This document shows, piece after piece, positions 8,568-36,187 of a stretch of 36,187 nt of DNA. The first letter of the stretch is position 1; the number at the start of each line of letters is the position of its first letter. The notes under the pieces were generated by a model. That model did no database searches, was not told the DNA's origin, and saw only the letters and a list, made by a program, of their open reading frames with translations. The translations under genes were made by a program, and so were the position numbers. Origin of the DNA: a virus (Duplodnaviria > Heunggongvirae > Uroviricota > Caudoviricetes); IMG/VR virus record IMGVR_UViG_2778261630_000008, positions 1 through 36,187 of that record; one strand, 5' to 3'.

Positions 8568-9401
8568 TCAGCAATTGGTCAGAGTGTCAGCGGGGGCGTT
8601 ACCGCCTGTTGCACGCTGGCGGTAGTCCTGGCGGCTGTCTTCATGACTCAGCTTATTCACCAGTTCGTTAAAGGCGGTCTGCTGTGCCTGCAGGGCAGTC
8701 TCCAGCTCAGACAGACGTTCTTCCTGCTCAGACAGGGATTTTTCGGTGCGTGCGCTCAGGTTTTGCTGCTCAGTGGCGACCAGCTCCACGGCCTTATGCA
8801 CATCAGAGAACCGGGCATCGTCGGACTGCTCTTTTTTGGTAAACAGCGCCGTGACACGGGCAAACAGGGACGGTTTGTCCTCCTGGATTTCTTCCAGTTC
8901 GATCACTGTTTCCTCTGCGGCGGTAAAGAGATTGGCGGGATTCTGCTTGCGGTTTGCCAGCGGGTTATGGGCTGCACTGGCGCTGAATGTCAGCATTTCC
9001 GTACCCAAACTGGCAGGGTCATCAGTGGCAGCCAGGCCGACCAGGTAGGCTTTGCCCGTATCAGCGAACTTCGGGCTGACTTCCATAGAGGTGAATAATT
9101 TCTGGCCTTTTTTCACCAATTCCACCAGGGACTCCGTTGGCTCAACGTCGGCATACAGCGCCATCTTGCCTGCCAGCGGGCCTTCCGTGATTTCTTCAGC
9201 AAACAGCGCCGTCACCTTGCCGTAACGGTTAAAGGTGCTGTCCGGGAGATAAGACTTGATGTGCTCAAGGTTAATCAGCGCGGTATACACCGCCGGGTTG
9301 TAGCTGGCTGCCATCTGTTCCAGCCATTCACGCTGGATTTCGCGTCCGTCGGTGGTGGCACCTTCCACCCCGATGCGAAAACGCTTTGCTTTCACTGTCA
9401 T
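8568..9401 (-). CDS. O: capsid scaffolding protein
   Basis: 277 aa with acidic coiled-coil C-terminus; first gene of the leftward O-N-M-L operon. Confidence 0.9.
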   Translation of the reverse strand: MTVKAKRFRIGVEGATTDGREIQREWLEQMAASYNPAVYTALINLEHIKSYLPDSTFNRYGKVTALFAEEITEGPLAGKMALYADVEPTESLVELVKKGQKLFTSMEVSPKFADTGKAYLVGLAATDDPASLGTEMLTFSASAAHNPLANRKQNPANLFTAAEETVIELEEIQEDKPSLFARVTALFTKKEQSDDARFSDVHKAVELVATEQQNLSARTEKSLSEQEERLSELETALQAQQTAFNELVNKLSHEDSRQDYRQRATGGNAPADTLTNC

Positions 9402-9479
9402 GAGCCGTGCTCCGTTAGAAATAACTTACTGGAGCCTTATGGTTGCGGTGATGGGGGCAGTGAAACAATGCGCGGTATT

Positions 9480-9497
9480 TGTACCGACAACCACACA
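9480..9497. promoter_or_regulatory. late-promoter activator site (TGT-N12-ACA) in the O/P divergent region
   Basis: TGT 9480..9482, 12 nt, ACA 9495..9497; centre 55 bp upstream of the P start codon. Confidence 0.5.
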
Positions 9498-9543
9498 AAC
9501 CGCAGGCGGGGAAAGCCTTCATTCAAGGCTGTAGGTTTGTGCC

Positions 9544-13051: not shown

Positions 13052-13160
13052 GTCAATTACTCCTCCCTATGAAAAAAATGAGTTGAAAAATTGAATATTC
13101 ACGACTTAAAAAGCTAGCCTATTTAACACCATAATTTCATTAATTCAACCATGAGCGCGC

Positions 13161-13180
13161 GCTCGTATCCCCGCCACGCC
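13161..13180. other. cos site of the prophage (186-type variant)
   Basis: Minus-strand GGCGTGGCGGGGATACGAGC shares the first 13 nt with the 186 cohesive end as I recall it; the flanks align base-for-base with the satellite cos region at 27011..27060. Confidence 0.55.
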
Positions 13181-13225
13181 TGCCCGCTTTATGTAGTGGT
13201 TTTCATGCACCTGCATGATCTACGC

Positions 13226-20717: not shown

Positions 20718-20960
20718 TTACTTACCAACAATGACGCGGAAGTTGGAATGACCGAGGGATTCACGGACCTGATCGGTTTTGTACATTAAATAACGCAGGC
20801 TTACGCGGCCTTTGTTTTTTTCTTTCTTGACCATGTATTTAGCAAGCTGACCATGGTGAATTTTTTGATACACGGAGCCGCGGGAGATACCTTCCCATTC
20901 CGCGAACTCAGCAGGCGTTGCCATCTCTTTTGGTACACGAATTGAAATATCAGTACTCAT
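20718..20960 (-). CDS. apl: Apl/Cox-type excisionase and lytic repressor
   Basis: 80-aa HTH protein, first gene of the rightward lytic operon, divergent from cI. Confidence 0.8.
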   Translation of the reverse strand: MSTDISIRVPKEMATPAEFAEWEGISRGSVYQKIHHGQLAKYMVKKEKNKGRVSLRYLMYKTDQVRESLGHSNFRVIVGK

Positions 20961-21076
20961 AGTGCAGTATCTCTTAGTTTGGTTTCGTTTTATCTTGTTT
21001 TATGTGGTTTGGTTTTGCTTTTCAAACCATGAATGGATATTAAGATCACTTTTTATATACGTCAAGAGGTTTGATT
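20961..21076. promoter_or_regulatory. immunity switch region (lytic and lysogenic promoters and operators)
   Basis: 110-bp AT-rich intergenic between apl and cI with repeated TTTTGCTTTTC / GTTTTATGTGGTTTGGTTTTG motifs; promoter positions not resolved. Confidence 0.45.
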
Positions 21077-21709
21077 ATGAGTTTAATCAAGGCAGGGAAT
21101 GATAGTGGTGGGCGCGATGCGATTAATAGGCTTATTAAGGCTTACAACTTCAGCTCACGACAGCAGCTCTGCGAACATCTGGAAGTATCAAAAAGCACTA
21201 TGGCTAACAGATACTTAAGGGATAGCTTTCCTGCCGAATGGGTAATCCAATGTGCCCTTGAAACAGGAGCTTCCCTTCTTTGGCTGGCTACTGGTCAAGG
21301 AGATATGTATGCGTGTGAGAACGAAGAAACAAATCTCAAAAATGAACCTCCCGTCACTGTAAGACCACTTTCTAAGATCGTTGCTCCTAGCATCAAACGT
21401 GTTGAACTGAAGAACGGCGAACTGCAGCCAAGTGATGAAATTCTTCTTGATAGCAGCCTGCTCGATGGTGACTCATCCAACGCTTTATTTGTTAAAACAG
21501 CTAATGATAGCTTTGTAGTGGATACGTCTGTTAAACAAGTCAGTAATGGCTTCTGGTTAGTCGATATGGACGGAGTTAAAAGCATCGTCAAAATTGCGCG
21601 CATACCCGGAAACAAAATAGTAGTTAACCAAGATGACACTTCATTTGAATGTTCTGTAGATGATGTGGAAGTCGTAGGACGTGCAGTCAAAGTAATCAAG
21701 AACCTCTAA
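21077..21709 (+). CDS. cI: CI immunity repressor
   Basis: ORF-track start 21071 is TTG; ATG 21077 has AGAGG RBS; N-terminal HTH and C-terminal oligomerisation-like domain; followed by int as in 186. Confidence 0.8.
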   Translation: MSLIKAGNDSGGRDAINRLIKAYNFSSRQQLCEHLEVSKSTMANRYLRDSFPAEWVIQCALETGASLLWLATGQGDMYACENEETNLKNEPPVTVRPLSKIVAPSIKRVELKNGELQPSDEILLDSSLLDGDSSNALFVKTANDSFVVDTSVKQVSNGFWLVDMDGVKSIVKIARIPGNKIVVNQDDTSFECSVDDVEVVGRAVKVIKNL

Positions 21710-21712
21710 CTT

Positions 21713-22753
21713 ATGACCATCAGAAAACAGCCGAACGGAAAATGGTTGTGTGAGTGCTATCCCAATGGACGCAATGGTAAGCGCGTGCGTAAGCAATTTG
21801 CTACCAAAGGCGAAGCCATTGCGTTTGAAAGCTTCACAATGGAAGAAGTGAACAAAAAACCATGGCTAGGGGAAAAGGAAGATCGGCGACATCTATCAGA
21901 ATTAATTGAGCTGTGGTATTCCCTGTATGGTCAAACACTCGCAGACCCCAAGCGCCTCATGGCGAAACTTAGAATTATCTGTAATGGTCTAGGCGATCCC
22001 ATCGCCTCAGAACTGACAGCTGGTGAGTTTACGAAATACCGCGAAGCACGGTTAAAAGGTGAAGTACGAAATGAAGATGGCACGCTTATGTCGCCAGTTA
22101 AGCCCCGCACGGTAAATCTTGAACAGCGCAACCTATCATCTGTTTTTGGTACACTGAAAAAGCTGGGCCACTGGTCAGCCCCCAACCCGCTTGCTGGGCT
22201 GCCAACATTTAAAATTGCTGAGGGTGAATTGGCGTTCCTGACCCCGGAAGAAATTAAACGTCTGCTGGATGCCTGTGCTGATTCTCAAAGCCCCAGTCTG
22301 CTGATGATTGCAAAAATATGCTTGGCCACCGGCGCACGCTGGAGCGAAGCCGAAAACCTACAGAGTCATCAGGTATCAAAATACCGTATCACTTATACCA
22401 AGACTAAAGGAAAGAAAAACCGAACAGTGCCTATTTCAAAGGATTTATATGAAGAACTGCCTAAGAATAGGGGAAAATTATTTACACCTTGTAGGAAAGC
22501 TTTTGAACGTGCGGTAAAACGAGCTGGTATCGAGCTACCAGAAGGGCAATGCACACACGTATTACGACATACATTTGCAAGTCACTTTATGATGAATGGC
22601 GGAAACATACTGGTGCTGCGCGATATTCTGGGCCATGTCGATATAAAAATGACAATGATTTACGCCCACTTCGCTCCCGACCATCTGGAAGATGCTGTAA
22701 CCAAAAATCCTCTTGCTAACCTTGGATGGAGAAAATTAGAAAGTGCTTGTTAA
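21713..22753 (+). CDS. int: tyrosine integrase
   Basis: 346 aa with C-terminal R...H.LRHT...Y catalytic region; 4 bp after cI stop. Confidence 0.9.
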   Translation: MTIRKQPNGKWLCECYPNGRNGKRVRKQFATKGEAIAFESFTMEEVNKKPWLGEKEDRRHLSELIELWYSLYGQTLADPKRLMAKLRIICNGLGDPIASELTAGEFTKYREARLKGEVRNEDGTLMSPVKPRTVNLEQRNLSSVFGTLKKLGHWSAPNPLAGLPTFKIAEGELAFLTPEEIKRLLDACADSQSPSLLMIAKICLATGARWSEAENLQSHQVSKYRITYTKTKGKKNRTVPISKDLYEELPKNRGKLFTPCRKAFERAVKRAGIELPEGQCTHVLRHTFASHFMMNGGNILVLRDILGHVDIKMTMIYAHFAPDHLEDAVTKNPLANLGWRKLESAC

Positions 22754-23874: not shown

Positions 23875-23919
23875 ATGTAGGAATTTCGGACGCGGGTTCA
23901 ACTCCCGCCAGCTCCACCA
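23875..23919 (+). other. ssrA: tmRNA (ssrA) 3'-terminal 45-nt segment = attachment-site core shared by the prophage and the satellite
   Basis: ATGTAGGAATTTCGGACGCGGGTTCAACTCCCGCCAGCTCCACCA matches the E. coli tmRNA 3' end as I recall it; sequence upstream diverges, so this is not a full tmRNA gene. Confidence 0.8.
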
Positions 23920-23952
23920 CTTGCTCTTCCGGATACGTCCGGAGAAATCCTG

Positions 23953-23988
23953 AAAGCCCACATGGAACAAGCCTTGTGGGCTTTTTTG
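23953..23988 (+). terminator. rho-independent terminator (ssrA-type)
   Basis: GCCCACA / TGTGGGC stem followed by TTTTTT (23982..23987). Confidence 0.65.
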
Positions 23989-24030
23989 TGTCCTCAGTTG
24001 TCCGAGAATATCCCGCTAAATCCAGTGATT

Positions 24031-24083
24031 ATTGGTATACGTTTAGGTATACGGTAAGATGTATACCTAAAAGCGTATACCAA
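24031..24083. repeat. integrase arm-type repeats (GGTATAC-containing, direct and inverted)
   Basis: ATTGGTATACGTTTAGGTATACGG then inverted GATGTATACCT and CGTATACCAA; a near-identical direct copy lies at 34434..34460. Confidence 0.4.
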
Positions 24084-24103
24084 TTCATAAAGGAGCGGCC
24101 AAA

Positions 24104-25297
24104 GTGGCAAGAACGACACGCCCCCTGACCAACACAGAAGTGCTGCGCGCAAAAGCGTTAGAAAAGGATCTTACATTGCATGATGGCGATGGTCTTTTTC
24201 TTCTCGTTAAAACGAACGGTAAGAAGTTATGGCGTTTCCGTTATCAACGTCCGACAACAAAGCAGCGGACAATGATGGGGCTAGGTGCCTTCCCAGCCAT
24301 ATCGCTTGCAGATGCCAGGAGATTAAAAGCTGATTATCTTTCATTATTAGCCAATGGAATTGATCCGCAAATTCAAGCGAAAGTGGCAGAGGAACAGCAA
24401 CAAATCGCGCTTGACAGTATTTTTTCAACAGTCGCCGCTAACTGGTTTCTGCTCAAAAGCAAAAGCGTTACCCCTGATTACGCAAAAGACATTTGGCGTT
24501 CACTTGAGAAAGACGTATTCCCCACTATCGGTGAGATCCCCGTTCAGAAGATCAAAGCCCGAACATTAATTGAAGCTCTTGAGTCCGTCAAAGCTCGAGG
24601 GGCGCTAGAGACCGTTCGTCGACTGGTGCAACGCATTAACGAGATAATGATTTATGCGGTTAACACCGGTTTGATTGATGCAAATCCAGCATCAGGTGTT
24701 GGTATGGCATTTGAGAAACCTAAAAAGAAAAATATGCCAACACTACGCCCAGAGGAATTGCCTAATCTGATGCATTCATTAACAATGTCAAATCTATCTG
24801 TCTCTACTCGATGTCTCATTGAATGGCAACTCCTAACTCTTGTCCGCCCTTCTGAAGCTTCAGGCACTCAATGGGCTGAGATCGATTTAGATGCGAAACT
24901 CTGGATAATTCCAGCTGAAAGAATGAAAGCAAAACGAGAACACATTGTTCCTTTGTCCCCCCAAGCTTTAGACATTTTGAATATAATGAAACCCATCAGT
25001 GCTCATCGTACACATGTTTTTCCTAGCAGGAGTGACCCCTTAAAACCAATGAATAGCCAAACGGCAAATGCCGCATTAAAGCGAATTGGCTTCGCTGGCA
25101 AACTAGTAGCCCATGGTCTACGTTCTATTGCAAGCACCGCCTTAAACGAACGTGGTTACAATCCTGATGTTATAGAAGCAGCTCTTGCTCATAGCGATAA
25201 AAACGAAGTACGTCGCGCTTATAATCGCTCGGTTTATTTAGAAAAACGTAAGCAACTAATGAATGATTGGGGGCAAATTGTGCACCCCCAATCATAA
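24104..25297 (+). CDS. int: P4-family tyrosine integrase (IntA-like)
   Basis: 397 aa, GTG start with AAGGAG RBS; strong resemblance to CP4-57 IntA / P4 Int as recalled; ~185 bp downstream of the ssrA core. Confidence 0.9.
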   Translation: MARTTRPLTNTEVLRAKALEKDLTLHDGDGLFLLVKTNGKKLWRFRYQRPTTKQRTMMGLGAFPAISLADARRLKADYLSLLANGIDPQIQAKVAEEQQQIALDSIFSTVAANWFLLKSKSVTPDYAKDIWRSLEKDVFPTIGEIPVQKIKARTLIEALESVKARGALETVRRLVQRINEIMIYAVNTGLIDANPASGVGMAFEKPKKKNMPTLRPEELPNLMHSLTMSNLSVSTRCLIEWQLLTLVRPSEASGTQWAEIDLDAKLWIIPAERMKAKREHIVPLSPQALDILNIMKPISAHRTHVFPSRSDPLKPMNSQTANAALKRIGFAGKLVAHGLRSIASTALNERGYNPDVIEAALAHSDKNEVRRAYNRSVYLEKRKQLMNDWGQIVHPQS

Positions 25298-25346
25298 AAA
25301 ACGATTTCAGTCCAAGCAACTATTAAAATTCAATAGATTGGGGACT

Positions 25347-26931
25347 TTATGTAGATTTAACATCAAGATGTTCTCCACAGTATCCGATAATTATTTTACG
25401 TTTACTTCTATCAACCCAAAAGTGGATTCTTATAGTTTCAGACTTGGAGCGGGCTGTTCCTATACCAACGTGTTGGAACATCTTTATTTTTTGACCATTA
25501 TAGTCAAACTCTCTCATTTTAGATAATGTAGCAGATCGCTCTACCGTCTCTGATTCATTTGCTGAATAAGCATCACCAAGAATATCTTTGGCCTTATTAT
25601 CTCCATTTTCAAGATACTCAAGAAGATATTCTGTACAAAGTTTATATAATAAATAAATCAATCTATGATTGTGTTTGAATTTCGATGAGTTCCTCGCTGA
25701 AGAAAATGCTGATTTAAGAATCTCAACATTATTAGGGATTAGGATTTCTAATAAACTCAAAACGGACTCAGGGTTTAACCTATTGCTAATTAAAGATATT
25801 ATCTTTTCAACATCAACATCACCATCAGTAGCTTTTCCATGGTATTTCCTAATATCGTATTTTAACCTTTCTAAGTCTACTTCTATTTTATTTTTTTCAA
25901 AGACAACTGCATCATGCTTTGCATCCAATTCCTCAATCCTTTTTAAATAATCAAGCTCTAATTCTTCACTAGCAGCCTTAAACTCCTCAAACTCTAAGAG
26001 GACTTCATCGAGCAAAGCTTCATACTGAGCACCATCTTTTAACTCATTTAATCTCTGCCTAAAAGAAATATTATCATCACGCTGTCTTTTGGCACGAACA
26101 TTAGCTGGTGATAAATGCAACTTTTTATTATAGCCATTAAAAGCATGCGTTATTACTGATAATATATAATTATTAATAGGAACATTACCCGCTTTAATTT
26201 CATCAACTTGCTTCGGGAGAAAAAGTTTTGTTCCTATATACCCTGACTTATTCATTGGGTAAATAATATTTATTGCCCCCCCCCCAAGATGAATAGTGTC
26301 TTCCAAGTAATCGTTCCATTTCCCAAGAGTCCATTTTACCACTTGTTGCAACAACCTGAGCAAGCCCAATAAGTTGCTCCTGTAGTTTTTCAGGTATAAC
26401 AGGAAATCCATCATTACCTTCACTAATAAAAACTAGCGGGTAGGTCCTGTCATCCCTAGAAATTTCATGCATAAGATACTGAAAGTCGCCATACTGACTT
26501 TTAATATAATCCACTTTCTGGCCGATAACATCCAGATCGAATACACAATTCCGTTTCAAATATGATACCAGAGATGGACGAGTAGCAATTGGTTTTGCAT
26601 CAACCATAGTGCTAACATCACTTATTTCTAACAATATAGATATAAACGTGCTTCCTTTTTCACGTCTAATTCCAATTTCTGTAATCCATTGTCTACCGCT
26701 CACATTCCTATCAGGATGAGTGTACATTATGGAATATATTTTAGGTTCCATTCTATCAGCCGTGTAGGTTCTAACATAGGCTCGCTCTAAATTCCAATCA
26801 CGCCGCGAAAGTAGCTCATCTGTTGATAGGCGAATATTAGCAACCCTATTAAGCCAACCACACACAGAACGCACTACGCTAAAAAAACTATCTTCACCGA
26901 TGCAATTAAACGAATTAACATAAACTAACAC
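25347..26931 (-). CDS. satellite hotspot gene, ~528 aa if read through a G10 tract; as written split into 227-aa and 358-aa overlapping frames; function unknown
   Basis: GTG 26931 with AAAGGAGA RBS; frame A (26931..26248) and frame B (26423..25347) overlap by 176 bp with the homopolymer inside the overlap; loss of one G fuses them; AT-rich; between int and cos. Confidence 0.55.
26276..26285. repeat. homopolymeric tract, C10 on plus strand (G10 on coding strand)
   Basis: Ten consecutive C at 26276..26285, at the junction of the two frames of the hotspot gene. Confidence 0.95.
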
Positions 26932-27019
26932 TACAATCTCCTTTCACTCATTTAAAGGGGAGGCTGAAAAGGAGTTATCTTATATACTTTTTGTAAATTA
27001 TTTCAATCTTTTGCGCGCA

Positions 27020-27038
27020 GTGCTTTCCCCGCCTCGCC
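27020..27038. other. cos site of the satellite (P2/P4 type)
   Basis: GTGCTTTCCCCGCCTCGCC is the reverse complement of GGCGAGGCGGGGAAAGCAC, the 19-nt P2/P4 cohesive end as I recall it. Confidence 0.8.
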
Positions 27039-27140
27039 CGCCCGCTTTGCGGGGCGGTTTTAATGCAGTTTCACTGACACGCTCAGGCCGCGCCGGGAAT
27101 GGCGCGGTCTGCAGAAAATGAGGCAGGAAAACGCATGCAA

Positions 27141-27172
27141 AGCCATGCACCTTATCGATGCATGGCTTTTTT
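27141..27172. terminator. stem-loop terminator between cos and psu
   Basis: AGCCATGCA / TGCATGGCT 9-bp stem with T-run on the plus side and A-run on the other; could terminate the sid-delta-psu transcript. Confidence 0.45.
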
Positions 27173-27202
27173 CAGTAAAAACAGGCGGATTTTCGGGGAA
27201 TT

Positions 27203-27775
27203 TTACACAGACTGACGTGATGCCAGTTGCGCACTTTTACGCGAAAAAATCATGTTCTGCGCAGGGGTGAATTTTTCACGGCTGTCATCCACCGAAGCCG
27301 CGTCAGGCCTGAATCCGATGGCCGTTAAAATGTCGCTATCCTGTGCGGAATAATTAATTTTTTCCCCCTTCGCAAGCCAGGACAGAAGGGCTTCACGCAG
27401 GGCATCTGTGGTACGCTGTATGGCACAGTTTCGGGCAATGGCCGTCAGCTCACTGTAGCCCATCAGCTCCGGTGCCAGTGCCGCCGCCAGTGCTGTACCG
27501 TGCTGCTGCATAAAATCATTCAGCCGGTCGCGGATGCTGATGTGCTGAACGGCTTCATGCGAACGAATATAACGACCGGCGGCCTGATTCACCTGCCATT
27601 TTCTGACTTCGATAATATTGCGTAATTCGTCCAGGCGGCTGACGTTTCTGCCTTCTCCTGACAGAAGCCGCAGATATTCCTGTTCGGCCGCTGCCAGCTC
27701 ATTTTTGCGTTGCAGCCATGCTGCTTTGTTATTCTGACAGGTGTCAAAGGCCTGCTGTAAGGCTGTGCTTTCCAT
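27203..27775 (-). CDS. psu: polarity suppression protein Psu (capsid decoration / Rho antagonist)
   Basis: 190 aa, the P4 Psu length; last gene of the sid-delta-psu operon next to cos. Confidence 0.9.
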   Translation of the reverse strand: MESTALQQAFDTCQNNKAAWLQRKNELAAAEQEYLRLLSGEGRNVSRLDELRNIIEVRKWQVNQAAGRYIRSHEAVQHISIRDRLNDFMQQHGTALAAALAPELMGYSELTAIARNCAIQRTTDALREALLSWLAKGEKINYSAQDSDILTAIGFRPDAASVDDSREKFTPAQNMIFSRKSAQLASRQSV

Positions 27776-27848
27776 CGTTATCTCTTTCTCATCATGCTGA
27801 AGAATAAAAATACGGTGTGCGGCGACGGCCGGGGTTAACCGGCAGCCC

Positions 27849-28349
27849 TCATTCCAGACGCAGCGAATATGATTGTGTTTTTAACCGTACTGGCGGCAGT
27901 TCCTGTTTTTCATGCAGGCGTTCTGCCAGTTCGTCCGGCGTGACCGGGCGGACAATGAAGCGGTTGATGGTCTGAAGCGTTTTAAACACCAGACCACAGC
28001 CCGGATCCGTGCACACATAAAAACGCTCGGTGACTTCCTGAGACAGACGCCGCGATGTTCTTGACAGTGCAAGGCCTTTACATCTCCGACAACAATATCC
28101 GGTAACAAGCATTCTTTTCGGGCGTTTCATACTGCCGGAGGCCGACGTCAGTGAATCGAGGTATCTCTGTTTGCCTGAAATGTATTCCATTCCTGAATCT
28201 TTACAGTCAGAGAAAAAGCTTTCACTCGCTTCAAATGTCGCAGAGCAATAAATATTCCGGCACTGTGCAATCATTATCTTGGTGCCATCGTCCATGAAAT
28301 GTGCGCGACGGGTGTGAGCAACATGTCCACACGACGGGCAGTAAATCAT
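27849..28349 (-). CDS. delta: Delta late-gene transactivator (duplicated Ogr-type zinc finger)
   Basis: 166 aa with two CxxC...CxxC units (CPSCGH... and CCRRCKG...); start overlaps sid stop. Confidence 0.9.
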   Translation of the reverse strand: MIYCPSCGHVAHTRRAHFMDDGTKIMIAQCRNIYCSATFEASESFFSDCKDSGMEYISGKQRYLDSLTSASGSMKRPKRMLVTGYCCRRCKGLALSRTSRRLSQEVTERFYVCTDPGCGLVFKTLQTINRFIVRPVTPDELAERLHEKQELPPVRLKTQSYSLRLE

Positions 28350-29080
28350 GACAGCAGTCCTCTGGCCTTAAGCTCTGCTCCCTGCTGGTCTATTTTGTCC
28401 TGCCACACCTTGCGCTGTGCCGGTGTGCCTGCCACCTCATAATCCATGTGCGGGAGTGTTGCCGCTGACAGTCCGGTCAGCCGGAGAACCGGCTCGCCGG
28501 TGAGGCTGATTTGCATCTGTTTTATTTTCTGTTCCAGCGATGATTTCACCTGCTGCATGACAGCTTTATCGGGTGCGACGTAGCCCTGATGGCCGGTGGT
28601 GTTGGCGAGCGGATTTTCCTGTACCAGGATGCTCAGATGCATTGCCCGGACAAGCGCCTCACAGGTTTCATTCAGGGCGTGTTCCAGCTCATTCTCTGCA
28701 TACAGACTCAGAAGGTGATGATGTGCCTTCCGGTAGGCGGTGGCCGTGCTGTCACACGCCCCTTTCAGGCGTTCACGTTCAAAATTCAGCACCACGGCCA
28801 GATTGTCATATTCCTGTACCAGCTCCCGGCGTGCCACGCGCTCAATGTGGCGCTGTTTCAGCTCGTCGCTCAGGACACCTCCGGCTGCACGAAAGGCCGT
28901 GCGCCAGTCGTCAGCGTCGTTTCCGTCGGCCTGCGCCAGCGCATTTTTTTCCTGCTCTGCCCGTTCAATAGCCGTGACGGTCTCATCCATCAGGCGGGCG
29001 TTCTCAAGATGAGCGACTCTGGCCTTTTCCAGTTGTGCCAGCGCGGGTTGCAGATATTCAGGGATGGTGTTGTCAGACAT
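28346..29080 (-). CDS. sid: Sid external scaffold (capsid size determination)
   Basis: ORF-track start 29098 is GTG; ATG 29080 with GAGGAG RBS gives 244 aa, the P4 Sid length. Confidence 0.85.
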   Translation of the reverse strand: MSDNTIPEYLQPALAQLEKARVAHLENARLMDETVTAIERAEQEKNALAQADGNDADDWRTAFRAAGGVLSDELKQRHIERVARRELVQEYDNLAVVLNFERERLKGACDSTATAYRKAHHHLLSLYAENELEHALNETCEALVRAMHLSILVQENPLANTTGHQGYVAPDKAVMQQVKSSLEQKIKQMQISLTGEPVLRLTGLSAATLPHMDYEVAGTPAQRKVWQDKIDQQGAELKARGLLS

Positions 29081-29114
29081 TTTCCGGCTCCTCGTCACTT
29101 CAGGTTAAGAAAAT

Positions 29115-29132
29115 TGTGACGTACACCGGACA
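29115..29132. promoter_or_regulatory. TGT-N12-ACA activator site upstream of sid (Psid-type late promoter)
   Basis: TGT 29115..29117, 12 nt, ACA 29130..29132, just upstream of the sid start. Confidence 0.5.
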
Positions 29133-29249
29133 ACAACACGACGCATTGCAGATGTGCCAGCCCTGACACAGGAGACTCATCCTCAGACCGGCAAGCCAGG
29201 AAAAGGTCGCAGGAAAAACCGGCTTACTGTTTGTTTTTTTATATTTTAC

Positions 29250-29363
29250 TGTTCACCTCTGTTCACCATAAGAAAAAAGATAAGTAATACAGTAAGTTAA
29301 ATGGTGAACAATCGCAGTAATGACTGTTCACCGTCTGTTCACCACTGTTCACCACTGTTCACC
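29250..29363. repeat. iteron cluster (TGTTCACC octamers), ori-like
   Basis: Six direct TGTTCACC copies (29250, 29260, 29325, 29336, 29346, 29356) plus one inverted GGTGAACA (29303); this octamer is the alpha-protein binding repeat of P4 ori/crr as I recall it. Confidence 0.7.
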
Positions 29364-29521
29364 CGTTGATGGGCTTTTTGTGCTGTTTATTACTTTTTAT
29401 TTTTATTAATTCACTGAAATAAATAAGAAAAAACAATTTGTATTTCACTATAATTTTTTCCAGCCCCTTCCAGAGCGTTTTAAAGCTATCTGGCGCTGAT
29501 GTGCAAAAAATACACAGCCAT

Positions 29522-29539
29522 TGTAAGACAGCCTGAACA
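29522..29539. promoter_or_regulatory. TGT-N12-ACA activator site upstream of vis (PLL-type promoter)
   Basis: TGT 29522..29524, 12 nt, ACA 29537..29539; ~110 bp upstream of the vis start. Confidence 0.45.
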
Positions 29540-29641
29540 AATCCCCCCTGTTGCGTCTGCTGAAAATATTCACAAAATAAAGCGCTACCCGAAGCCGGAC
29601 GGACTTATCCGGTGCTGTATGGACATTAACGAGGTAGCCCG

Positions 29642-29908
29642 ATGCAAGCTGTTTTTTCTTCCCCGTCTCCCGCTCCTGTAACGCCACTGATTCCGCTGCC
29701 GGACATCACGCAGGAGCGTTTTTTACGTCTGCCGGAAGTGATGCACCTGTGCGGCCTGTCACGCTCGACCATCTATGAACTCATCCGTAAGGGGGAATTT
29801 CCGCCGCAGGTGAGTCTTGGCGGTAAAAATGTGGCCTGGCTGCACTCTGAAGTCACTGCATGGATGGCCGGGCGCATTGCCGGACGCAAACGGGGGTACG
29901 ACGCATGA
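29642..29908 (+). CDS. vis: Vis / AlpA-family excisionase-type regulator
   Basis: 88 aa, the P4 Vis (orf88) length; AlpA-like HTH ([29 protein letters not shown]); GAGG RBS. Confidence 0.8.
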
Positions 29909-30036
29909 TGATGCCTGTTCTGCAAAAACTCCCTTTTTCTGGCTTGCCTTTTTCCGGCATTTGCGGATATAGTTTTTCCGCTGCCGCAAAATCGGCAGCC
30001 GGGCGTGAGAACCCGTGTAACTCGAAGGCGACATAT

Positions 30037-30058
30037 GACGCGCCATGCGTCTTTTTTT
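30037..30058 (+). terminator. short hairpin with T7 tract (candidate attenuator/terminator in the vis-to-orf66 gap)
   Basis: GACGC / GCGTC 5-bp stem (30037..30051) followed by TTTTTTT (30052..30058); weak stem. Confidence 0.35.
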
Positions 30059-30297
30059 GTGTCGCAATCAACGCCACAGAGCGCCAGATTATGGTGTGGC
30101 GTGTGGTTTGCCGTGCAGGTATGATCCTGTTCGCAATCACATGTTATGCCACTGAGTCAATGGTAGCTCAGGCGGGGCAGCCTCCGGGCTGGCCGGTATT
30201 CTTCGAGGCCGGTATTCTCACCCCCGTCTGGGCTATCGCCATCGAGCGTGAGAACTCCGGCGATAGCAGTTATTTGCTACTCGAAGGAGGCTGCCTT

Positions 30298-30495
30298 ATG
30301 GCTACAACCCTTACCCCCTCACACCCTGAATTTGTCTTTGTGTTTGCCGCTGTCCGTCGCGCAGACCGTCATCCCCGTATCTGCATGCTTCGCACCGTCG
30401 CCGGTGATGAACGCAGTGCCCGCCGTTCCCTTGTCCGTGACTATGTGCTCTCCCTTGCTGCCCGTCTGCCGGTGATGGGGGTGTCCCGTGCGTAA
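30298..30495 (+). CDS. small left-operon protein, 66 aa (kil position of P4?)
   Basis: ATG 30298 preceded by GAAGGAGG; the longer upstream extension of this frame looks non-coding and low-complexity. Confidence 0.4.
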
Positions 30496-30775
30496 TAAAA
30501 AAGCCCCTCAGACCGTCTCAGCGCGTCATGACGCCCGTGAACACCTCAGCATTGAGGCTTACCATAAGCTCAACCGCGCCAGCGCCGTATCCCAGTTTGT
30601 TGGGGGTGATTTGATTCACCGTGAACTCTCCGGCCTGCATCAGCTCTACATTCCGCATATTTTCAGCTACCTGAATGAGGATATTGATTTTGTGCTGAAT
30701 GAGCTGAAAGCCAAAGGCCTGTGCCGTGATTTTCTCGCCCAGCAGAAAGACCGGGGAGACAGGACGCATGTTTGA
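30488..30775 (+). CDS. small left-operon protein, 95 aa (epsilon position of P4?)
   Basis: GTG start overlapping the previous stop; size and order relative to orf151/cnr/alpha match my recollection of P4 epsilon; no sequence-level confirmation. Confidence 0.4.
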
Positions 30776-31223
30776 TTTTCCCCAGCCCGGTGAGATTTAC
30801 CGTTCTGCCGGTTTTCCCGATGTGGCCGTGGTCGGCATTCTGGAAGACGGTATTCCGTGGGAAATGCCGTACCGCTGCCCGGACATTGTCTGGAACCCGT
30901 ACCGCCGTAAATTCAGTATCCTTGTGCGTATCCTCGCTGACGGACGCACCACAGACATCCCGCTGGGGCGTTTTCTGCGGGAATTTACCTGTGACCGTCC
31001 TGACCTGTTTAAACGCAGCCCCGTAAACCGGCATGCGGTACTGAAAGAAATGGCCGGAGACCCGGAATTACAGAAATGGCGGGAGAAATATCTGGATATT
31101 TACCCGCAGGCCCCTGTTCCGGTCAGCCGGGCGGCACCGGTGGCGCGGGAATGGCGGGAAATTCCCCGCACGGAGTCTGACCCGGAAATCACCCCGGATA
31201 ACAGTTACCGCAATTATCTGTAA
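30768..31223 (+). CDS. left-operon protein, 151 aa (P4 orf151-like)
   Basis: ATG 30768 ([12 protein letters not shown]...) with GGAG upstream; length and position equal P4 orf151 as recalled. Confidence 0.55.
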   Translation: MFDFPQPGEIYRSAGFPDVAVVGILEDGIPWEMPYRCPDIVWNPYRRKFSILVRILADGRTTDIPLGRFLREFTCDRPDLFKRSPVNRHAVLKEMAGDPELQKWREKYLDIYPQAPVPVSRAAPVAREWREIPRTESDPEITPDNSYRNYL

Positions 31224-31358
31224 TTAAAAAACGACACCCGAAAAATTAAATGTGCGTATTCGCGCAGGGATACGCACGTCTTCAGGAGACGCAGATATGC
31301 CTTATCAGTTAATGCAACCGGCACGGAATGCAGTCATCTGTCACAGGGAGGAAAACAA

Positions 31359-31679
31359 ATGAAAACACCCTTACCGCCCGTCTTACGCGCTGCCCTTTAC
31401 CGTCGCGCTGTCGCCTGTGCCTGGCTGACCGTGTGCGAACGTCAGCACCGCTACCCGCATCTCACCCTTGAGTCACTGGAGGCGGCCATCGCCGCTGAGC
31501 TGGAAGGCTTTTATCTGCGCCAGCACGGTGAGGAAAAAGGGCGTCAGATAGCCTGTGCCCTGCTGGAAGATTTAATGGAATCCGGCCCCCTGAAGGCCGC
31601 GCCGTCGCTGTCCTTTCTCGGGCTGGTTGTGATGGATGAACTCTGTGCCCGTCACATAAAAGCGCCGGTACTGCACTGA
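31359..31679 (+). CDS. left-operon protein, 106 aa (P4 Cnr/orf106-like)
   Basis: ATG with GGGAGGAAAA RBS; 106 aa immediately upstream of alpha. Confidence 0.55.
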
Positions 31680-31693
31680 AGGAGAACAACACC

Positions 31694-34027
31694 ATGAAAA
31701 TGAACGTAACCGCCACCGTCAGCCATGCGCTCGGCCACTGGCCGCGTATTCTCCCGGCGCTGGGGATTCAGGTGCTGAAAAACCGTCATCAGCCCTGTCC
31801 GGTCTGTGGCGGGAGTGACCGCTTCCGTTTTGATGACAGGGAGGGGCGCGGCACCTGGTACTGCAATCAGTGTGGTGCCGGTGACGGCCTGAAACTGGTT
31901 GAAAAGGTGTTTGGTGTTTCCCCGTCCGACGCGGCCGCAAAGGTGGCTGCCGTGACCGGCAGCCTGCCCCCGGCTGACCCGGCAGTGACGACCGCCGCCG
32001 GTGCTGAAACAGACGCTGCCCGGAAGAACGCCGCCGCACTGGCACAAACCCTGATGGCGAAAACCCGTCCCGGAACCGGTAACGCCTACCTGACCCGCAA
32101 GGGCTTTCCCGGCCGGGAATGCCGGATGCTGACCGGCACACACAGAGCCGGTGGCGTGAGCTGGCGCGCCGGTGACCTTGTGGTGCCACTGTATGACGAC
32201 AGCGGCGAACTGGTTAACCTTCAGTTAATCAGCGCTAACGGCCGTAAGCGCACCCTGAAAGGCGGACAGGTCAGGGGCACCTGTCACACCCTTGAAGGAC
32301 AGAATCAGGCCGGAAAACGTCTGTGGATAGCGGAGGGATACGCGACCGCACTTACCGTGCATCACCTGACCGGTGAAACGGTGATGGTGGCGCTTTCTTC
32401 CGTGAACCTCCTTTCTCTGGCCAGCCTTGCCCGGCAGAAGCATCCGGCCTGTCATATTGTCCTTGCTGCTGACCGTGACCTCAGCGGTGACGGCCAGACA
32501 AAAGCCGCCGCAGCCGCAGATGCGTGTGAAGGTGTTGTTGCCCTGCCGCCGGTCTTCGGTGACTGGAATGATGCCTTCACGCAGTACGGCGGGGAAGCCA
32601 CCCGTAAGGCCATTTATGATGCCATCCGGCCACCGGCTGAAAGCCCGTTCGACACCATGAGCGAAGCGGAGTTTTCCGCCATGAGTACCAGCGAAAAGGC
32701 CATGCGTATCTATGAGCATTACGGCGAGGCGCTCGCGGTCGATGCCAACGGCCAGCTTCTGTCCCGCTATGAAAATGGTGTCTGGAAGGTGCTGCCGCCA
32801 CAGGACTTTGCCCGGGATGTGGCCGGGCTGTTTCAGCGTCTGCGCGCGCCGTTCTCCTCCGGGAAGGTGGCCTCCGTGGTGGACACCCTGAAGCTGATTA
32901 TTCCGCAGCAGGAAGCCCCCTCCCGCCGCCTGATTGGCTTTCGTAACGGCGTGCTCGACACGCAGAGCGGCACGTTCCACCCGCACAGTCCGTCACACTG
33001 GATGCGCACCCTGTGCGATGTGGATTTCACCCCGCCGGTGGAAGGGGAAACGCTGGAAACCCACGCCCCCGCGTTCTGGCGCTGGCTTGACCGTGCCGCC
33101 GGTGGTCGTGCGGAAAAACGCGACGTGATTCTGGCCGCACTGTTTATGGTGCTGGCAAACCGCTACGACTGGCAGCTCTTTCTGGAGGTGACCGGCCCCG
33201 GCGGCAGCGGCAAAAGTATCATGGCCGAAATAGCCACCCTGCTGGCCGGTGAGGATAACGCCACGTCGGCCACCATCGAGACGCTGGAATCCCCGCGTGA
33301 ACGTGCCGCGTTAACTGGCTTCTCACTGATACGCCTGCCGGACCAGGAAAAATGGAGCGGCGACGGTGCCGGACTCAAGGCCATCACCGGCGGCGATGCG
33401 GTGTCCGTTGACCCGAAATACCGGGATGCATACTCCACGCATATCCCGGCGGTAATTCTGGCCGTGAACAATAACCCGATGCGCTTCACCGACCGCAGCG
33501 GCGGCGTGTCACGCCGGCGGGTGATTATTCACTTCCCGGAACAGATAGCCCCGCAGGAGCGCGACCCGCAGCTTAAGGACAAAATCACCCGCGAGCTGGC
33601 GGTCATCGTGCGTCACCTGATGCAGAAGTTCAGCGACCCGATGCTCGCCCGGTCACTGCTTCAGTCCCAGCAGAACTCAGACGAGGCGCTGAACATCAAA
33701 CGGGATGCCGACCCGACGTTTGATTTTATCGGCTATCTGGAAACCCTGCCGCAGACCAGCGGCATGTATATGGGGAACGCCAGTATCATCCCGCGCAATT
33801 ACCGTAAATACCTCTATCACGCCTATCTGGCCTACATGGAGGCAAACGGCTACCGGAATGTACTCAGTCTGAAAATGTTCGGGCTGGGGCTGCCGGTGAT
33901 GCTGAAGGAATACGGACTGAATTACGAGAAGCGCCATACCAAACAGGGGATACAGACCAACCTGACGCTGAAAGAGGAAAGCTACGGCGACTGGCTGCCA
34001 AAATGTGACGACCCTGCAACAACCTGA
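31694..34027 (+). CDS. alpha: alpha primase-helicase (zinc-binding N-terminus, primase, SF3-type helicase, iteron-binding C-terminus)
   Basis: 777 aa, the P4 alpha length; CPVCGG...CNQCG zinc motif at the N-terminus, Walker A GPGGSGKS mid-protein; GGAGAA RBS. Confidence 0.95.
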   Translation: MKMNVTATVSHALGHWPRILPALGIQVLKNRHQPCPVCGGSDRFRFDDREGRGTWYCNQCGAGDGLKLVEKVFGVSPSDAAAKVAAVTGSLPPADPAVTTAAGAETDAARKNAAALAQTLMAKTRPGTGNAYLTRKGFPGRECRMLTGTHRAGGVSWRAGDLVVPLYDDSGELVNLQLISANGRKRTLKGGQVRGTCHTLEGQNQAGKRLWIAEGYATALTVHHLTGETVMVALSSVNLLSLASLARQKHPACHIVLAADRDLSGDGQTKAAAAADACEGVVALPPVFGDWNDAFTQYGGEATRKAIYDAIRPPAESPFDTMSEAEFSAMSTSEKAMRIYEHYGEALAVDANGQLLSRYENGVWKVLPPQDFARDVAGLFQRLRAPFSSGKVASVVDTLKLIIPQQEAPSRRLIGFRNGVLDTQSGTFHPHSPSHWMRTLCDVDFTPPVEGETLETHAPAFWRWLDRAAGGRAEKRDVILAALFMVLANRYDWQLFLEVTGPGGSGKSIMAEIATLLAGEDNATSATIETLESPRERAALTGFSLIRLPDQEKWSGDGAGLKAITGGDAVSVDPKYRDAYSTHIPAVILAVNNNPMRFTDRSGGVSRRRVIIHFPEQIAPQERDPQLKDKITRELAVIVRHLMQKFSDPMLARSLLQSQQNSDEALNIKRDADPTFDFIGYLETLPQTSGMYMGNASIIPRNYRKYLYHAYLAYMEANGYRNVLSLKMFGLGLPVMLKEYGLNYEKRHTKQGIQTNLTLKEESYGDWLPKCDDPATT

Positions 34028-34034
34028 CCCACCT

Positions 34035-34059
34035 GACCGGCATCTGCCGGTCTTTTTTT
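34035..34059 (+). terminator. rho-independent terminator of the alpha operon
   Basis: GACCGGC / GCCGGTC stem with ATCT loop followed by TTTTTTT (34053..34059), 8 bp after the alpha stop. Confidence 0.7.
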
Positions 34060-34074
34060 ATCCCTGAATTCCCC

Positions 34075-34375
34075 GAAGGTGAACAATCCACTGTTCACCC
34101 TTCACCGTATATTCACCCGTTATCACACTGAAATTAAAAGAGAAAAATGAAAGGTGAACAGTGTGAACAATCAAATCAAAAAAAACTTTTTTCTCCCTGT
34201 GTGATTTCAGTGCGGGGGATTAATCACCGGTATGAGTCACACCGGCAGAATGCCGGAGGTGAAGAATCGAATGTTCACCCTTCACCCATTATTAACCACC
34301 TATCACTCTGAAATAAAAGGAGAAAATCAAAGGGTGAACAGTGTGAACAGTTCTTTCGAAAAAAAATTTTTTTCC
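34075..34375. repeat. crr-like region: two ~120-bp direct repeats, each carrying GGTGAACA/TGTTCACC octamers
   Basis: Unit 1 ~34075..34195 and unit 2 ~34255..34375, period 180 bp, near-identical; about 4.9 kb from the other iteron cluster, matching the P4 ori/crr arrangement as recalled. Confidence 0.75.
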
Positions 34376-34433
34376 TGTACGATATAGCATCAATCCAAGT
34401 AAAAATGCGCTTTCATTTCACATTAACTTACAG

Positions 34434-34460
34434 CCATTGGTATACGATTAGGTATACGCA
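34434..34460. repeat. arm-type repeat copy at the satellite right end
   Basis: CATTGGTATACGATTAGGTATACGCAC, direct copy of 24031..24053. Confidence 0.4.
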
Positions 34461-34511
34461 CAAAAACTGAATTAAACAAAATCGTTAAAAATCAAAGCAA
34501 TATAATATTTA

Positions 34512-34531
34512 TTCAAACTCCGCCAGCCTCA
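34512..34531. other. degenerate copy of the ssrA 3' core (candidate attR of the satellite)
   Basis: TTCAAACTCCGCCAGCCTCA versus TTCAACTCCCGCCAGCTCCA in the 23875..23919 core; roughly 19 of 23 positions match when two indels are allowed; arm-type repeat ~50 bp to its left. Confidence 0.35.
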
Positions 34532-34654
34532 TGATTGGACGGTGTAAGGACTACACCAACAAAAACAGGAAGTTATAAGTCTCAGCAGGACACCGACCAG
34601 ACGGTGAGGAGACAAAAAAGGATACGCAACGGAGTCGCGACTCCCTATGACATT

Positions 34655-34680
34655 AAAGCCCGCTGATGCGGGCTTTTTTA
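34655..34680. terminator. bidirectional-looking terminator in host intergenic DNA
   Basis: AAAGCCCGC-TGAT-GCGGGCTTTTTT hairpin. Confidence 0.5.

Positions 34681-35110: not shown

Positions 35111-36187
<1,077 letters not shown>

What the first reader, a model, noticed from the sequence alone, without database searches (positions are those of the whole stretch)
29250..29363. Dense TGTTCACC iteron cluster between the sid and vis promoters
Seen: seven copies of the octamer within ~115 bp, four of them in a tight tandem array (29325..29363), about 4.9 kb from the crr-like repeats. Established knowledge: the P4 alpha protein binds this octamer at ori and crr. Its placement between two divergent activator-dependent promoters suggests replication and late transcription signals overlap here.
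Basis: partly seen in the sequence, partly recalled or inferred. Interest (0 to 1): 0.35.

Follow-up and report, generated by a model that had tools for sequence, protein, structure and literature searches.

The report
P4 satellite replication origin (ori1)
The repeat cluster is the well-known replication origin of a P4-type satellite prophage, nearly identical to phage P4's own origin except for one extra 10-bp repeat unit, so it is ordinary.

Summary
TGTTCACC occurs 7 times in 29250-29363 (2 direct, 1 inverted, 4 tandem) and 5 more times at 34078-34340, against about 1 expected in the whole window.

It is ori1 of a P4-like satellite prophage (about 23,920-34,680). The segment is 92% identical to phage P4 at the place where GenBank X51522 annotates the origin of replication and its type 1 repeats, and nearly base-for-base identical across the iterons.

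The partners are all present:
- crr, with two 120-bp repeats.
- An intact alpha, 99% identical to P4 alpha, whose C-terminal origin-binding domain is 100% identical to PDB 1KA8.
- Cnr, 100% identical.

The iterons and a 35-bp AT-rich spacer are conserved across Enterobacterales satellites, while the flanks are not.

Two differences from P4 were found. One is an extra 10-bp iteron unit, a rare slippage allele seen in 7 of 375 comparable E. coli copies. The other is replacement of the neighbouring "type 2 repeat" block, which in P4 coincides with the binding boxes for the helper phage's Cox protein.

The origin lies between Psid and PLL but is 79 bp and 158 bp from their activator sites. Verdict: already known, low interest.

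The parts
29228..29363 (+). ori1 core of the P4-like satellite: T-run, seven type 1 iterons and the internal AT-rich spacer
   Evidence: Aligns nearly base-for-base with P4 X51522 9310-9413 and flanks, which the record annotates as 'ori type 1 repeat' x6 inside 'origin of DNA replication'. Conserved across 17 other lineages.
29250..29267 (+). Iterons 1 and 2 (TGTTCACC at 29250-29257 and 29260-29267), direct, 10-bp pitch
   Evidence: Identity to other lineages is 0.84 and 0.96.
29268..29302 (.). 35-bp AT-rich spacer (about 77-80% A+T), the presumed unwinding tract; AATACAGTAAGTTAAA is almost invariant
   Evidence: AT profile. Identity across lineages is 0.80, against 0.47 for the other spacer.
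29303..29310 (-). Iteron 3, inverted; forms a head-to-head dyad with iteron 4 (29303-29332)
   Evidence: Identity across lineages is 1.00. The dyad was flagged as a stem by the terminator scan.
29325..29363 (+). Iterons 4-7, tandem array (starts 29325, 29336, 29346, 29356). P4 has three here; the window has one extra 10-bp unit, CTGTTCACCA
   Evidence: Four-copy allele in 7 of 375 full-length E. coli matches. Tandem run of 3-5 copies in P4-like IMG/VR contigs.
29153..29170 (-). TGT-N12-ACA element of the sid late promoter (Ogr/Delta activator site); a second copy at 29115-29132 is present only in the window and P4
   Evidence: The arms are 0.99 conserved across lineages. Consensus taken from PMC3931495. 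The assignment to Psid is inferred.
29441..29521 (.). Lineage-variable block between ori1 and PLL. It replaces the P4 'type 2 repeats', which coincide with P2 Cox boxes. Not part of the conserved origin
   Evidence: Alignment divergence from P4. Identity across lineages is 0.31. TTAAAGNCA occurs only in the P4 type 2 repeats and nowhere in the window. Cox-box consensus from PMC3936717.
29522..29539 (+). TGT-N12-ACA element upstream of vis (PLL late promoter)
   Evidence: identical in P4. Poorly aligned in other lineages, so the assignment is less secure.
34073..34372 (.). crr, the second cis-acting replication site: two 120-bp direct repeats 180 bp apart, carrying 5 exact and 4 one-mismatch iterons
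   Evidence: About 97% identical to the annotated P4 crr.
31694..34027 (+). alpha: initiator with Zn-ribbon/Toprim primase, SF3 helicase and a C-terminal winged-helix origin-binding domain
   Evidence: 767/776 identical to P4 alpha. Residues 671-770 are 100% identical to PDB 1KA8. Pfam domains.
31359..31679 (+). cnr (ORF106), copy-number regulator of P4 replication
   Evidence: 106/106 identical to P4 ORF106. The function is from my own knowledge of the P4 literature.
29642..29908 (+). vis (ORF88), first gene of the leftward late operon
   Evidence: 86/88 identical to P4 ORF88.
28346..29082 (-). sid, first gene of the sid-delta-psu late operon
   Evidence: ORF list; alignment to the P4 sid start.

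Best explanation
The cluster is ori1, the alpha-dependent replication origin of a P4-type satellite prophage integrated next to ssrA.

Shown here:
- The segment is homologous, almost base for base, to the annotated P4 origin.
- It has the same 2 direct + 1 inverted + tandem iteron layout, with all direct copies on one helical face.
- It encloses a conserved 35-bp AT-rich tract.
- It is paired with a crr 4.7-4.8 kb away, just downstream of an intact alpha gene whose origin-binding domain is identical to the crystallised P4 domain.

Inferred from established P4 biology (my own knowledge, plus PMC4889955 and PMC2777425 for the domain roles):
- After derepression, alpha binds the TGTTCACC octamers at ori1 and crr through its C-terminal winged-helix domain.
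- Alpha assembles as an SF3 helicase, opens the AT-rich tract and primes DNA synthesis with its own DnaG-type primase domain, giving bidirectional theta replication that does not need host DnaA, DnaB or DnaG.
- crr is required in cis, and Cnr restrains alpha to set copy number.

The extra seventh iteron is a 10-bp replication-slippage allele that keeps the helical phasing. It most likely has little or no effect beyond adding one more alpha site.
For: Homology: 92.4% identity over 801 bp to P4 X51522 8972-9763, where the record annotates 'origin of DNA replication', six type 1 repeats and three type 2 repeats. The pairwise alignment is identical across the iteron block apart from four point substitutions and one 10-bp insertion.

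Statistics: 12 octamers against 1.04 expected, all of them in ori or crr.

Partners: crr is about 97% identical to P4 crr, with two 120-bp repeats. Alpha is 99%, Cnr 100% and Vis 98% identical to P4. [quoted passage not shown]

Conservation: in 80 alpha-encoding loci from many Enterobacterales genera, the octamer clusters at a fixed position upstream of alpha and just downstream of it. A de novo 8-mer count recovers the TGTTCAC core as the word shared by both sites. Iterons are 0.84-1.00 conserved against 0.31-0.47 for spacers and flanks.

Phasing: the direct iterons sit at offsets of 0-2 bp modulo 10.5.

Allele: the four-copy array recurs independently in E. coli (7 of 375) and in P4-like IMG/VR contigs that have 3-5 copies.
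Against: Nothing in the sequence contradicts this. The classic papers that define alpha-iteron binding and the minimal ori1 could not be read in the held library, so those points rest on the GenBank annotation and on my memory. Whether this particular prophage is still inducible is unknown. The effect of the seventh iteron is unknown.
Confidence: 0.94

Rival explanations
1. The octamers act mainly as transcriptional operators. Alpha, or another protein bound there, would regulate the divergent late promoters Psid and PLL, so the cluster would be a regulatory element that couples replication to late transcription.
For: The cluster lies in the 560-bp sid-vis intergenic region between two TGT-N12-ACA elements. 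No sigma-70-type promoter is predicted there, which fits activator-dependent promoters. A conserved block of unknown role (29193-29215) lies between the Psid site and the iterons.
Against: The outermost iterons are 79 bp and 158 bp from the activator sites, with poorly conserved sequence between them. The same octamers recur at crr, downstream of alpha, where there is no late promoter. The P4 record annotates the site as an origin. A secondary regulatory effect of alpha binding cannot be excluded.
Confidence: 0.04
2. The cluster is a decayed or non-functional remnant. The prophage would be a domesticated island and the repeats would persist only by descent from P4, with the 10-bp insertion marking relaxed constraint.
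For: The element is chromosomal in every E. coli genome examined, never on a plasmid. The cargo gene at 25347-26931 appears to be split into two ORFs. The P2-type Cox boxes are absent.
Against: Alpha, Cnr, Vis, sid, delta, psu, integrase, crr and the immunity RNAs are all intact and 98-100% identical to P4. The iterons are perfect copies, whereas neutral decay would degrade them. The insertion is exactly one repeat unit and preserves the phasing.
Confidence: 0.02

Closest known systems
Phage P4 ori1 (GenBank X51522 / NC_001609, type 1 repeats at 9310-9413, within rep_origin 9086-9809)
   Same: The octamer, the orientation pattern (2 direct, 1 inverted, then tandem), the 35-bp AT-rich spacer and the flanking sequence back to the sid start are all the same. 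So is the position between sid and vis. The partner crr has two 120-bp repeats, and alpha, Cnr and Vis are 98-100% identical.
   Different: The tandem array has four copies instead of three, one extra 10-bp unit. The adjacent block carrying P4's three 'type 2 repeats' is replaced by unrelated sequence from about 29441 to 29521. Four point substitutions lie within or next to the iteron block.
P4-like satellite prophages of E. coli and other Enterobacterales
   Same: About 1,000 of 5,426 complete E. coli genomes carry this ori segment on the chromosome. An element 99.1% identical over 10.8 kb sits at ssrA in strain PapRG-06-5. Iterons at ori and crr are conserved in many genera.
   Different: Nearly all have three tandem copies; four occur in 7 of 375 comparable E. 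coli copies and five occur rarely in IMG/VR. More distant lineages (58-70% alpha identity) use drifted variants such as TGTTCACT, TCTTCACC and TATTCACC.
Classical iteron origins of plasmids (pSC101, RK2, F, P1 type)
   Same: They also have directly repeated initiator-binding sites phased with the helix next to an AT-rich tract, and initiator titration by extra sites as a copy-control principle. These shared points are general knowledge.
   Different: The repeats here are 8 bp at a 10-11-bp pitch rather than about 17-22 bp. The origin is bipartite, with a required cis site 4.7 kb away. The initiator is itself the helicase and primase (Pfam domains). No DnaA box, IHF core or GATC lies in the conserved core; one relaxed DnaA-box match lies outside it at 29500-29508.

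Membership tests
P4-type bipartite origin (ori1 + crr, alpha-dependent) | Cluster of type 1 iterons TGTTCACC, direct and inverted, spaced close to the helical repeat | tested here: met
   Seven exact copies at 29250-29363; the direct copies sit at offsets of 0-2 bp modulo 10.5.
P4-type bipartite origin (ori1 + crr, alpha-dependent) | Sequence homology to the experimentally defined P4 origin | tested here: met
   92.4% identity over 801 bp to X51522 across the annotated rep_origin and type 1 repeats; the iteron block is near-identical.
P4-type bipartite origin (ori1 + crr, alpha-dependent) | AT-rich tract associated with the iterons | tested here: met
   29268-29302 is 77-80% A+T and 0.80 conserved across lineages.
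P4-type bipartite origin (ori1 + crr, alpha-dependent) | Second cis site (crr) with two 120-bp direct repeats carrying the same iterons, several kb away and downstream of alpha | tested here: met
   34073-34192 and 34253-34372, with 5 exact and 4 one-mismatch iterons, about 97% identical to P4 crr and 4.7-4.8 kb from ori.
P4-type bipartite origin (ori1 + crr, alpha-dependent) | Cognate initiator alpha with primase, SF3 helicase and a winged-helix origin-binding domain, plus Cnr | tested here: met
   Alpha is 767/776 identical to P4 alpha. Residues 671-770 are 100% identical to 1KA8. Pfam finds Zn_Ribbon_Prim, Toprim, D5_N, DUF5906 and Pox_D5. Cnr is 106/106 identical.
P4-type bipartite origin (ori1 + crr, alpha-dependent) | Location in the sid-vis intergenic region of a P4-like gene order (int ... 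psu-delta-sid | vis ... cnr-alpha-crr) | tested here: met
   ORF order and identities; P4 immunity RNAs C4 and isrK at 29967-30243.
P4-type bipartite origin (ori1 + crr, alpha-dependent) | Alpha binds the octamers, and the fragment supports alpha-dependent replication | not testable with these tools
   Needs EMSA or footprinting and a replication assay. Here it is inferred only from the identity of the binding domain and of the sites.
P4-type bipartite origin (ori1 + crr, alpha-dependent) | Type 2 repeats next to the iterons, as annotated in the P4 record | tested here: not met
   That block is replaced in the window and varies in every lineage. In P4 the repeats match the P2 Cox-box consensus, so they are better read as a PLL/helper-sensing element than as a defining part of the origin. 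As I recall, the published minimal ori1 excludes them.
Classical plasmid iteron origin (Rep / DnaA-dependent) | Iterons of about 17-22 bp, DnaA boxes in the origin, and a separate host helicase and primase | tested here: not met
   The repeats are 8 bp. There is no DnaA box in the conserved core, only one relaxed match at 29500-29508 in the variable block. The initiator carries its own helicase and primase domains.

The most novel reading that the evidence does not exclude
The origin itself is P4's. The most novel reading left open concerns the 80-bp block beside it (29441-29521). That block may be a swappable 'helper-sensor' cassette. In P4 it holds P2 Cox boxes. In other satellite lineages it holds different sets of 3-4 repeats phased at 10-11 bp. 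In this lineage it holds neither. Satellites could therefore retune which helper's Cox/Apl protein wakes them, independently of a strictly conserved origin. In that reading, the rare seventh iteron might be a linked adjustment of copy control.
Probability: 0.25. Interest if true: 0.4.

Novelty: already known. Interest (0 to 1): 0.08.

Why it matters
It matters little for new biology. The finding re-identifies the textbook origin of satellite phage P4 in a prophage copy. It is useful for annotation, because it fixes the element as a complete and probably replication-competent P4-like satellite lying beside a P2/186-like prophage. It also documents natural variation in iteron copy number (3-5) at a well-studied origin. 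The only lead with some wider interest is the neighbouring variable block. P4's so-called 'type 2 ori repeats' coincide with helper Cox boxes, and they are replaced lineage by lineage while the origin stays fixed.

Tried and rejected
- **Primary P4 replication papers.** I tried to read Tocchetti 1999, Ziegelin 1993 and the Lindqvist 1993 review, but none is held. A full-text search for the octamer returned only unrelated primer sequences. Statements about the minimal ori1, alpha footprinting, crr looping and Cnr are therefore marked as my own knowledge.
- **Variable block versus the neighbouring prophage.** I tested whether 29365-29521 shares repeated words with the CI/Apl switch region (20961-21077) or the att region of the neighbouring 186-like prophage. 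It shares 5 seven-mers, and 181 of 500 random window segments share as many or more, so there is no signal.
- **Lineage-specific repeat pair in P2-like phages.** I scanned IMG/VR for GGTCAATAATGGCCAAT. Seven of the ten hits were satellites and three were chance matches in unrelated contigs, so the result is uninformative.
- **ORF at 35210+.** I first took it for an integrase of a further island. Pfam shows it is host CsiD/GlaH, so I dropped that reading.
- **Terminator-like stem at 29303-29332.** It is simply the head-to-head iterons 3 and 4. I rejected it as a terminator.
- **Megablast with a 96-bp query to count four-copy alleles.** It was uninformative, because three-copy loci were joined from two overlapping pieces and still scored 100% coverage. 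I replaced it by reading match spans for the 321-bp query.

Full report
**1. Observation**

The octamer TGTTCACC occurs exactly at 29250, 29260 (+), 29303 (-), 29325, 29336, 29346 and 29356 (+). The last four form a tandem array at 11/10/10-bp pitch, which Tandem Repeats Finder reports as period 10 x 4.0 copies. Five more exact copies lie at 34078-34340, and there are none elsewhere in the 36,187 bases. The total of 12 compares with 1.04 expected, and no dinucleotide shuffle out of 100 reaches 12. Allowing one mismatch adds nothing in the ori segment and four copies in the distal cluster.

**2. What it is**

Window 28900-29700 is 92.4% identical to phage P4 (X51522 / NC_001609) at 8972-9763. 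There the record annotates 'origin of DNA replication', six 'ori type 1 repeats' and three 'ori type 2 repeats', flanked by sid and ORF88 (vis). In the pairwise alignment, everything from the sid start through the iterons is the same apart from four point substitutions and one 10-bp insertion (CTGTTCACCA). That insertion turns P4's three tandem iterons into four.

The distal cluster is P4's crr. It has two 120-bp direct repeats 180 bp apart and is about 97% identical to P4, lying immediately after alpha's terminator.

The trans-acting genes are essentially P4's:
- Alpha is 767/776 identical.
- Cnr (ORF106) is 106/106 identical.
- Vis is 86/88 identical.
- Alpha residues 671-770 are 100% identical to PDB 1KA8. 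That entry is the winged-helix DNA-binding (origin-binding) domain of P4 alpha (PMC2777425; PMC4889955).
- Pfam finds the Zn-ribbon, Toprim primase, D5_N, SF3 helicase and Pox_D5 C-terminal domains.
- Rfam finds the P4 immunity RNAs (C4, isrK, c4-a1b1) at 29967-30243.

The element spans about 23,920-34,680. The same 10.8-kb block occurs at 99.1% identity at the 3' end of ssrA in E. coli PapRG-06-5, with the gene order int, cargo, psu, delta, sid, [ori], vis, icd-like, two ORFs, cnr, alpha.

**3. Conservation**

I took 80 loci encoding alpha homologues (58-99% identity) from many Enterobacterales genera. In nearly all loci with at least 74-78% alpha identity, exact TGTTCACC copies cluster at one fixed position upstream of alpha. 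The order is (+)(+)...(-)...(+)(+)(+), and further copies lie 50-310 bp downstream of alpha.

A count of repeated 8-mers that made no assumption about the motif recovers CTGTTCAC/GGTGAACA, or the one-base variant AGTGAACA, as the word shared by the two sites. In the 58-70% identity group the motif drifts.

A 19-sequence alignment of the whole sid-vis intergenic region gives these identities to the window base among 17 other lineages:

| Segment | Identity |
|---|---|
| Iterons | 0.84-1.00 |
| 35-bp AT-rich spacer (29268-29302) | 0.80 |
| Other inter-iteron spacer | 0.47 |
| Right flank | 0.43 |
| Block 29441-29521 | 0.31 |

The low value returned for the last iteron is only an artefact of where the aligner placed the 10-bp gap.

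**4. Mechanism**

Shown here are the homology, the layout, the phasing (direct iterons at offsets of 0-2 bp modulo 10.5), the AT-rich tract, the paired crr, and an intact initiator with an identical DNA-binding domain.

The rest is inferred from established P4 biology. For the domain roles I rely on PMC4889955; for the remainder I rely on my own knowledge of Flensburg and Calendar 1987, Ziegelin et al. 1993/1995/1997, Tocchetti et al. 1999 and Yeo et al. 2002, none of which could be opened here:
- Alpha binds the octamers at ori1 and crr through its C-terminal winged helix.
- It unwinds the AT-rich tract as an SF3 helicase and primes with its own DnaG-type primase.
- The result is bidirectional theta replication independent of host DnaA, DnaB and DnaG.
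- crr is required in cis, and Cnr limits initiation.

As I recall, the published minimal ori1 is a 123-bp segment with the six iterons and a 35-bp AT-rich region. That matches the conserved core seen here.

**5. The extra iteron**

For a 321-bp query across the origin, 375 E. coli complete genomes give full-length matches. Seven of them span 321 bp (four tandem copies) and the rest span 311 bp (three). This includes the 99.1%-identical PapRG-06-5 element, which has three.

In IMG/VR the P4-type three-copy array with exact flanks occurs in 54 contigs. P4-like contigs with four copies (L087, L089, L094, L100, L109) or five (L103) exist on different sequence backgrounds. None of the 80 species representatives has four copies.

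So the seventh iteron is a rare, recurrent slippage allele of exactly one repeat unit that keeps the phasing. Its effect is untested, and it is most likely neutral or a small change in alpha titration.

**6. The 'overlap' idea**

TGT-N12-ACA, the Ogr/Delta-dependent late-promoter element (PMC3931495), occurs at 29153-29170, 29115-29132 and 29522-29539. The arms of the 29153 site are 0.99 conserved. No sigma-70-type promoter is predicted in the region.

The outermost iterons are 79 bp from the Psid-side site and 158 bp from the PLL-side site, with weakly conserved sequence in between. The origin therefore lies between the two late promoters, exactly as in P4, but the signals are adjacent modules rather than overlapping ones. 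A functional influence of alpha binding on transcription is not excluded, but nothing here supports it.

**7. The block beside the origin**

P4's three 'ori type 2 repeats', read on the other strand, are TTAAAGTCA and TTAAAGCCA. TTAAAGNCA occurs only there in the 8.6-kb P4 locus and nowhere in the window. This is the P2 Cox-box consensus TTAAA(G/C)NC(A/C). Cox boxes are spaced 10-11 bp, and they are the sites through which helper Cox binds upstream of P4 PLL and derepresses the satellite (PMC3936717). W-phi Cox recognises a different repeat and does not activate P4 (PMC5009727).

In the window this block (29441-29521) is replaced by unrelated sequence, a version shared by 375 of about 1,008 E. 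coli copies. Other lineages carry their own 3-4 phased repeats in the same place, for example GATTGCCA, GTTTGCC and ATGGCCAAT.

I therefore read the 'type 2 repeats' as a helper-sensing element of PLL, not as part of the origin. Two quick tests for matching sites in helper phages gave nothing. One compared the block with the neighbouring prophage's switch region and the other was an exact 17-mer scan.

**8. Context**

- Window 1 to about 23,874 is a P2/186-like prophage with capsid, terminase, tail, replication endonuclease, CII, an Apl-like protein, CI and int.
- A 45-bp copy of the ssrA 3' end at 23875-23919 separates it from the satellite.
- ARAGORN finds no complete tmRNA in the window.
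- To the right of the satellite, the ORF at 35210+ is host CsiD/GlaH, not an integrase as I first noted.

**9. Verdict**

This is P4 ori1 in a P4-like prophage, which is already known. Interest is low (0.08). The only mildly novel threads are the natural 3-5 copy variation of the tandem iterons and the lineage-variable helper-sensor block next to a fixed origin.

Noticed in passing
window 1-23919: A P2/186-like prophage lies directly beside the satellite. It has tail, capsid and terminase genes, a replication endonuclease, CII, an Apl-like gene at 20718-20960, CI at 21071-21709 and int at 21713-22753. A 45-bp copy of the ssrA 3' end (23875-23919) separates the two elements, so helper-type phage and satellite are integrated in tandem at ssrA. 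The same arrangement is seen in strain GPEC673.
   Followed up: partly
window 29441-29521 (P4 X51522 9176-9205): P4's annotated 'ori type 2 repeats' match the P2 Cox-box consensus. This block is replaced in the window and differs in every satellite lineage, and several lineages carry their own 3-4 repeats at 10-11-bp pitch. It may be a swappable helper-sensing cassette upstream of PLL.
   Followed up: partly
L084-L113 (e.g. L108:200-301 and 13126-13208; alpha-like gene L108:11308-13077): About 23 IMG/VR contigs of roughly 39% GC carry four or five TGTTCACC copies at the same 10-11-bp pitch in unrelated flanks. L108 and L111 encode a protein about 40% identical to alpha residues 347-760. In L108 this is a 589-aa ORF that lacks the Zn-ribbon/Toprim part. 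Octamers also lie 50-125 bp after the L108 gene (a crr-like position), and a 406-aa ORF lies next to it, at the position of int in Pmp7. The closest annotated relatives are Pasteurella 'phages' Pmp7 and Pmp8 (54% identity). Pmp7 itself has only one exact copy.
   Followed up: partly
window 33463-33470 (minus strand), inside alpha: An iteron-like TGTTCACG lies here, as in P4. The same position holds an exact TGTTCACC in more than a dozen of the 80 alpha loci. It may correspond to the internal ori2 that I recall from the P4 literature. However, it encodes the conserved Ala-Val-Asn-Asn helicase residues, so coding constraint could explain it.
   Followed up: partly
window 25347-26931 (minus strand): The cargo region between int and psu reads as two overlapping ORFs (358 and 227 aa) with no Pfam match. 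The 99%-identical element in PapRG-06-5 has a single 527-aa hypothetical gene there, so the window copy is probably frameshifted. This is the position of the P4 defence-gene hotspot.
   Followed up: partly
window 29193-29215: A conserved block, GCCAGGAAAAGGTCGCAGGAA (0.75 identity across lineages), lies between the Psid activator site and the iterons. Its function is unknown.
   Followed up: no
window 29500-29508 (minus strand): A single match to the relaxed DnaA-box consensus (TTTTGCACA) lies in the variable block, 14 bp from the PLL TGT-N12-ACA. About 0.02 matches are expected by chance in this segment. It is absent from P4.
   Followed up: no
window 29967-30243: Rfam hits to c4-a1b1, isrK and C4 antisense RNA mark the P4-type RNA immunity system downstream of vis. 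They overlap the ORF annotated as Icd-like/Ash (29860-30495).
   Followed up: no
L171:6589-9662 and L174:3444-6498: Two IMG/VR P4-like contigs carry a 2.6-kb duplication that repeats a partial sid, the variable block upstream of PLL and vis, giving two vis copies.
   Followed up: no
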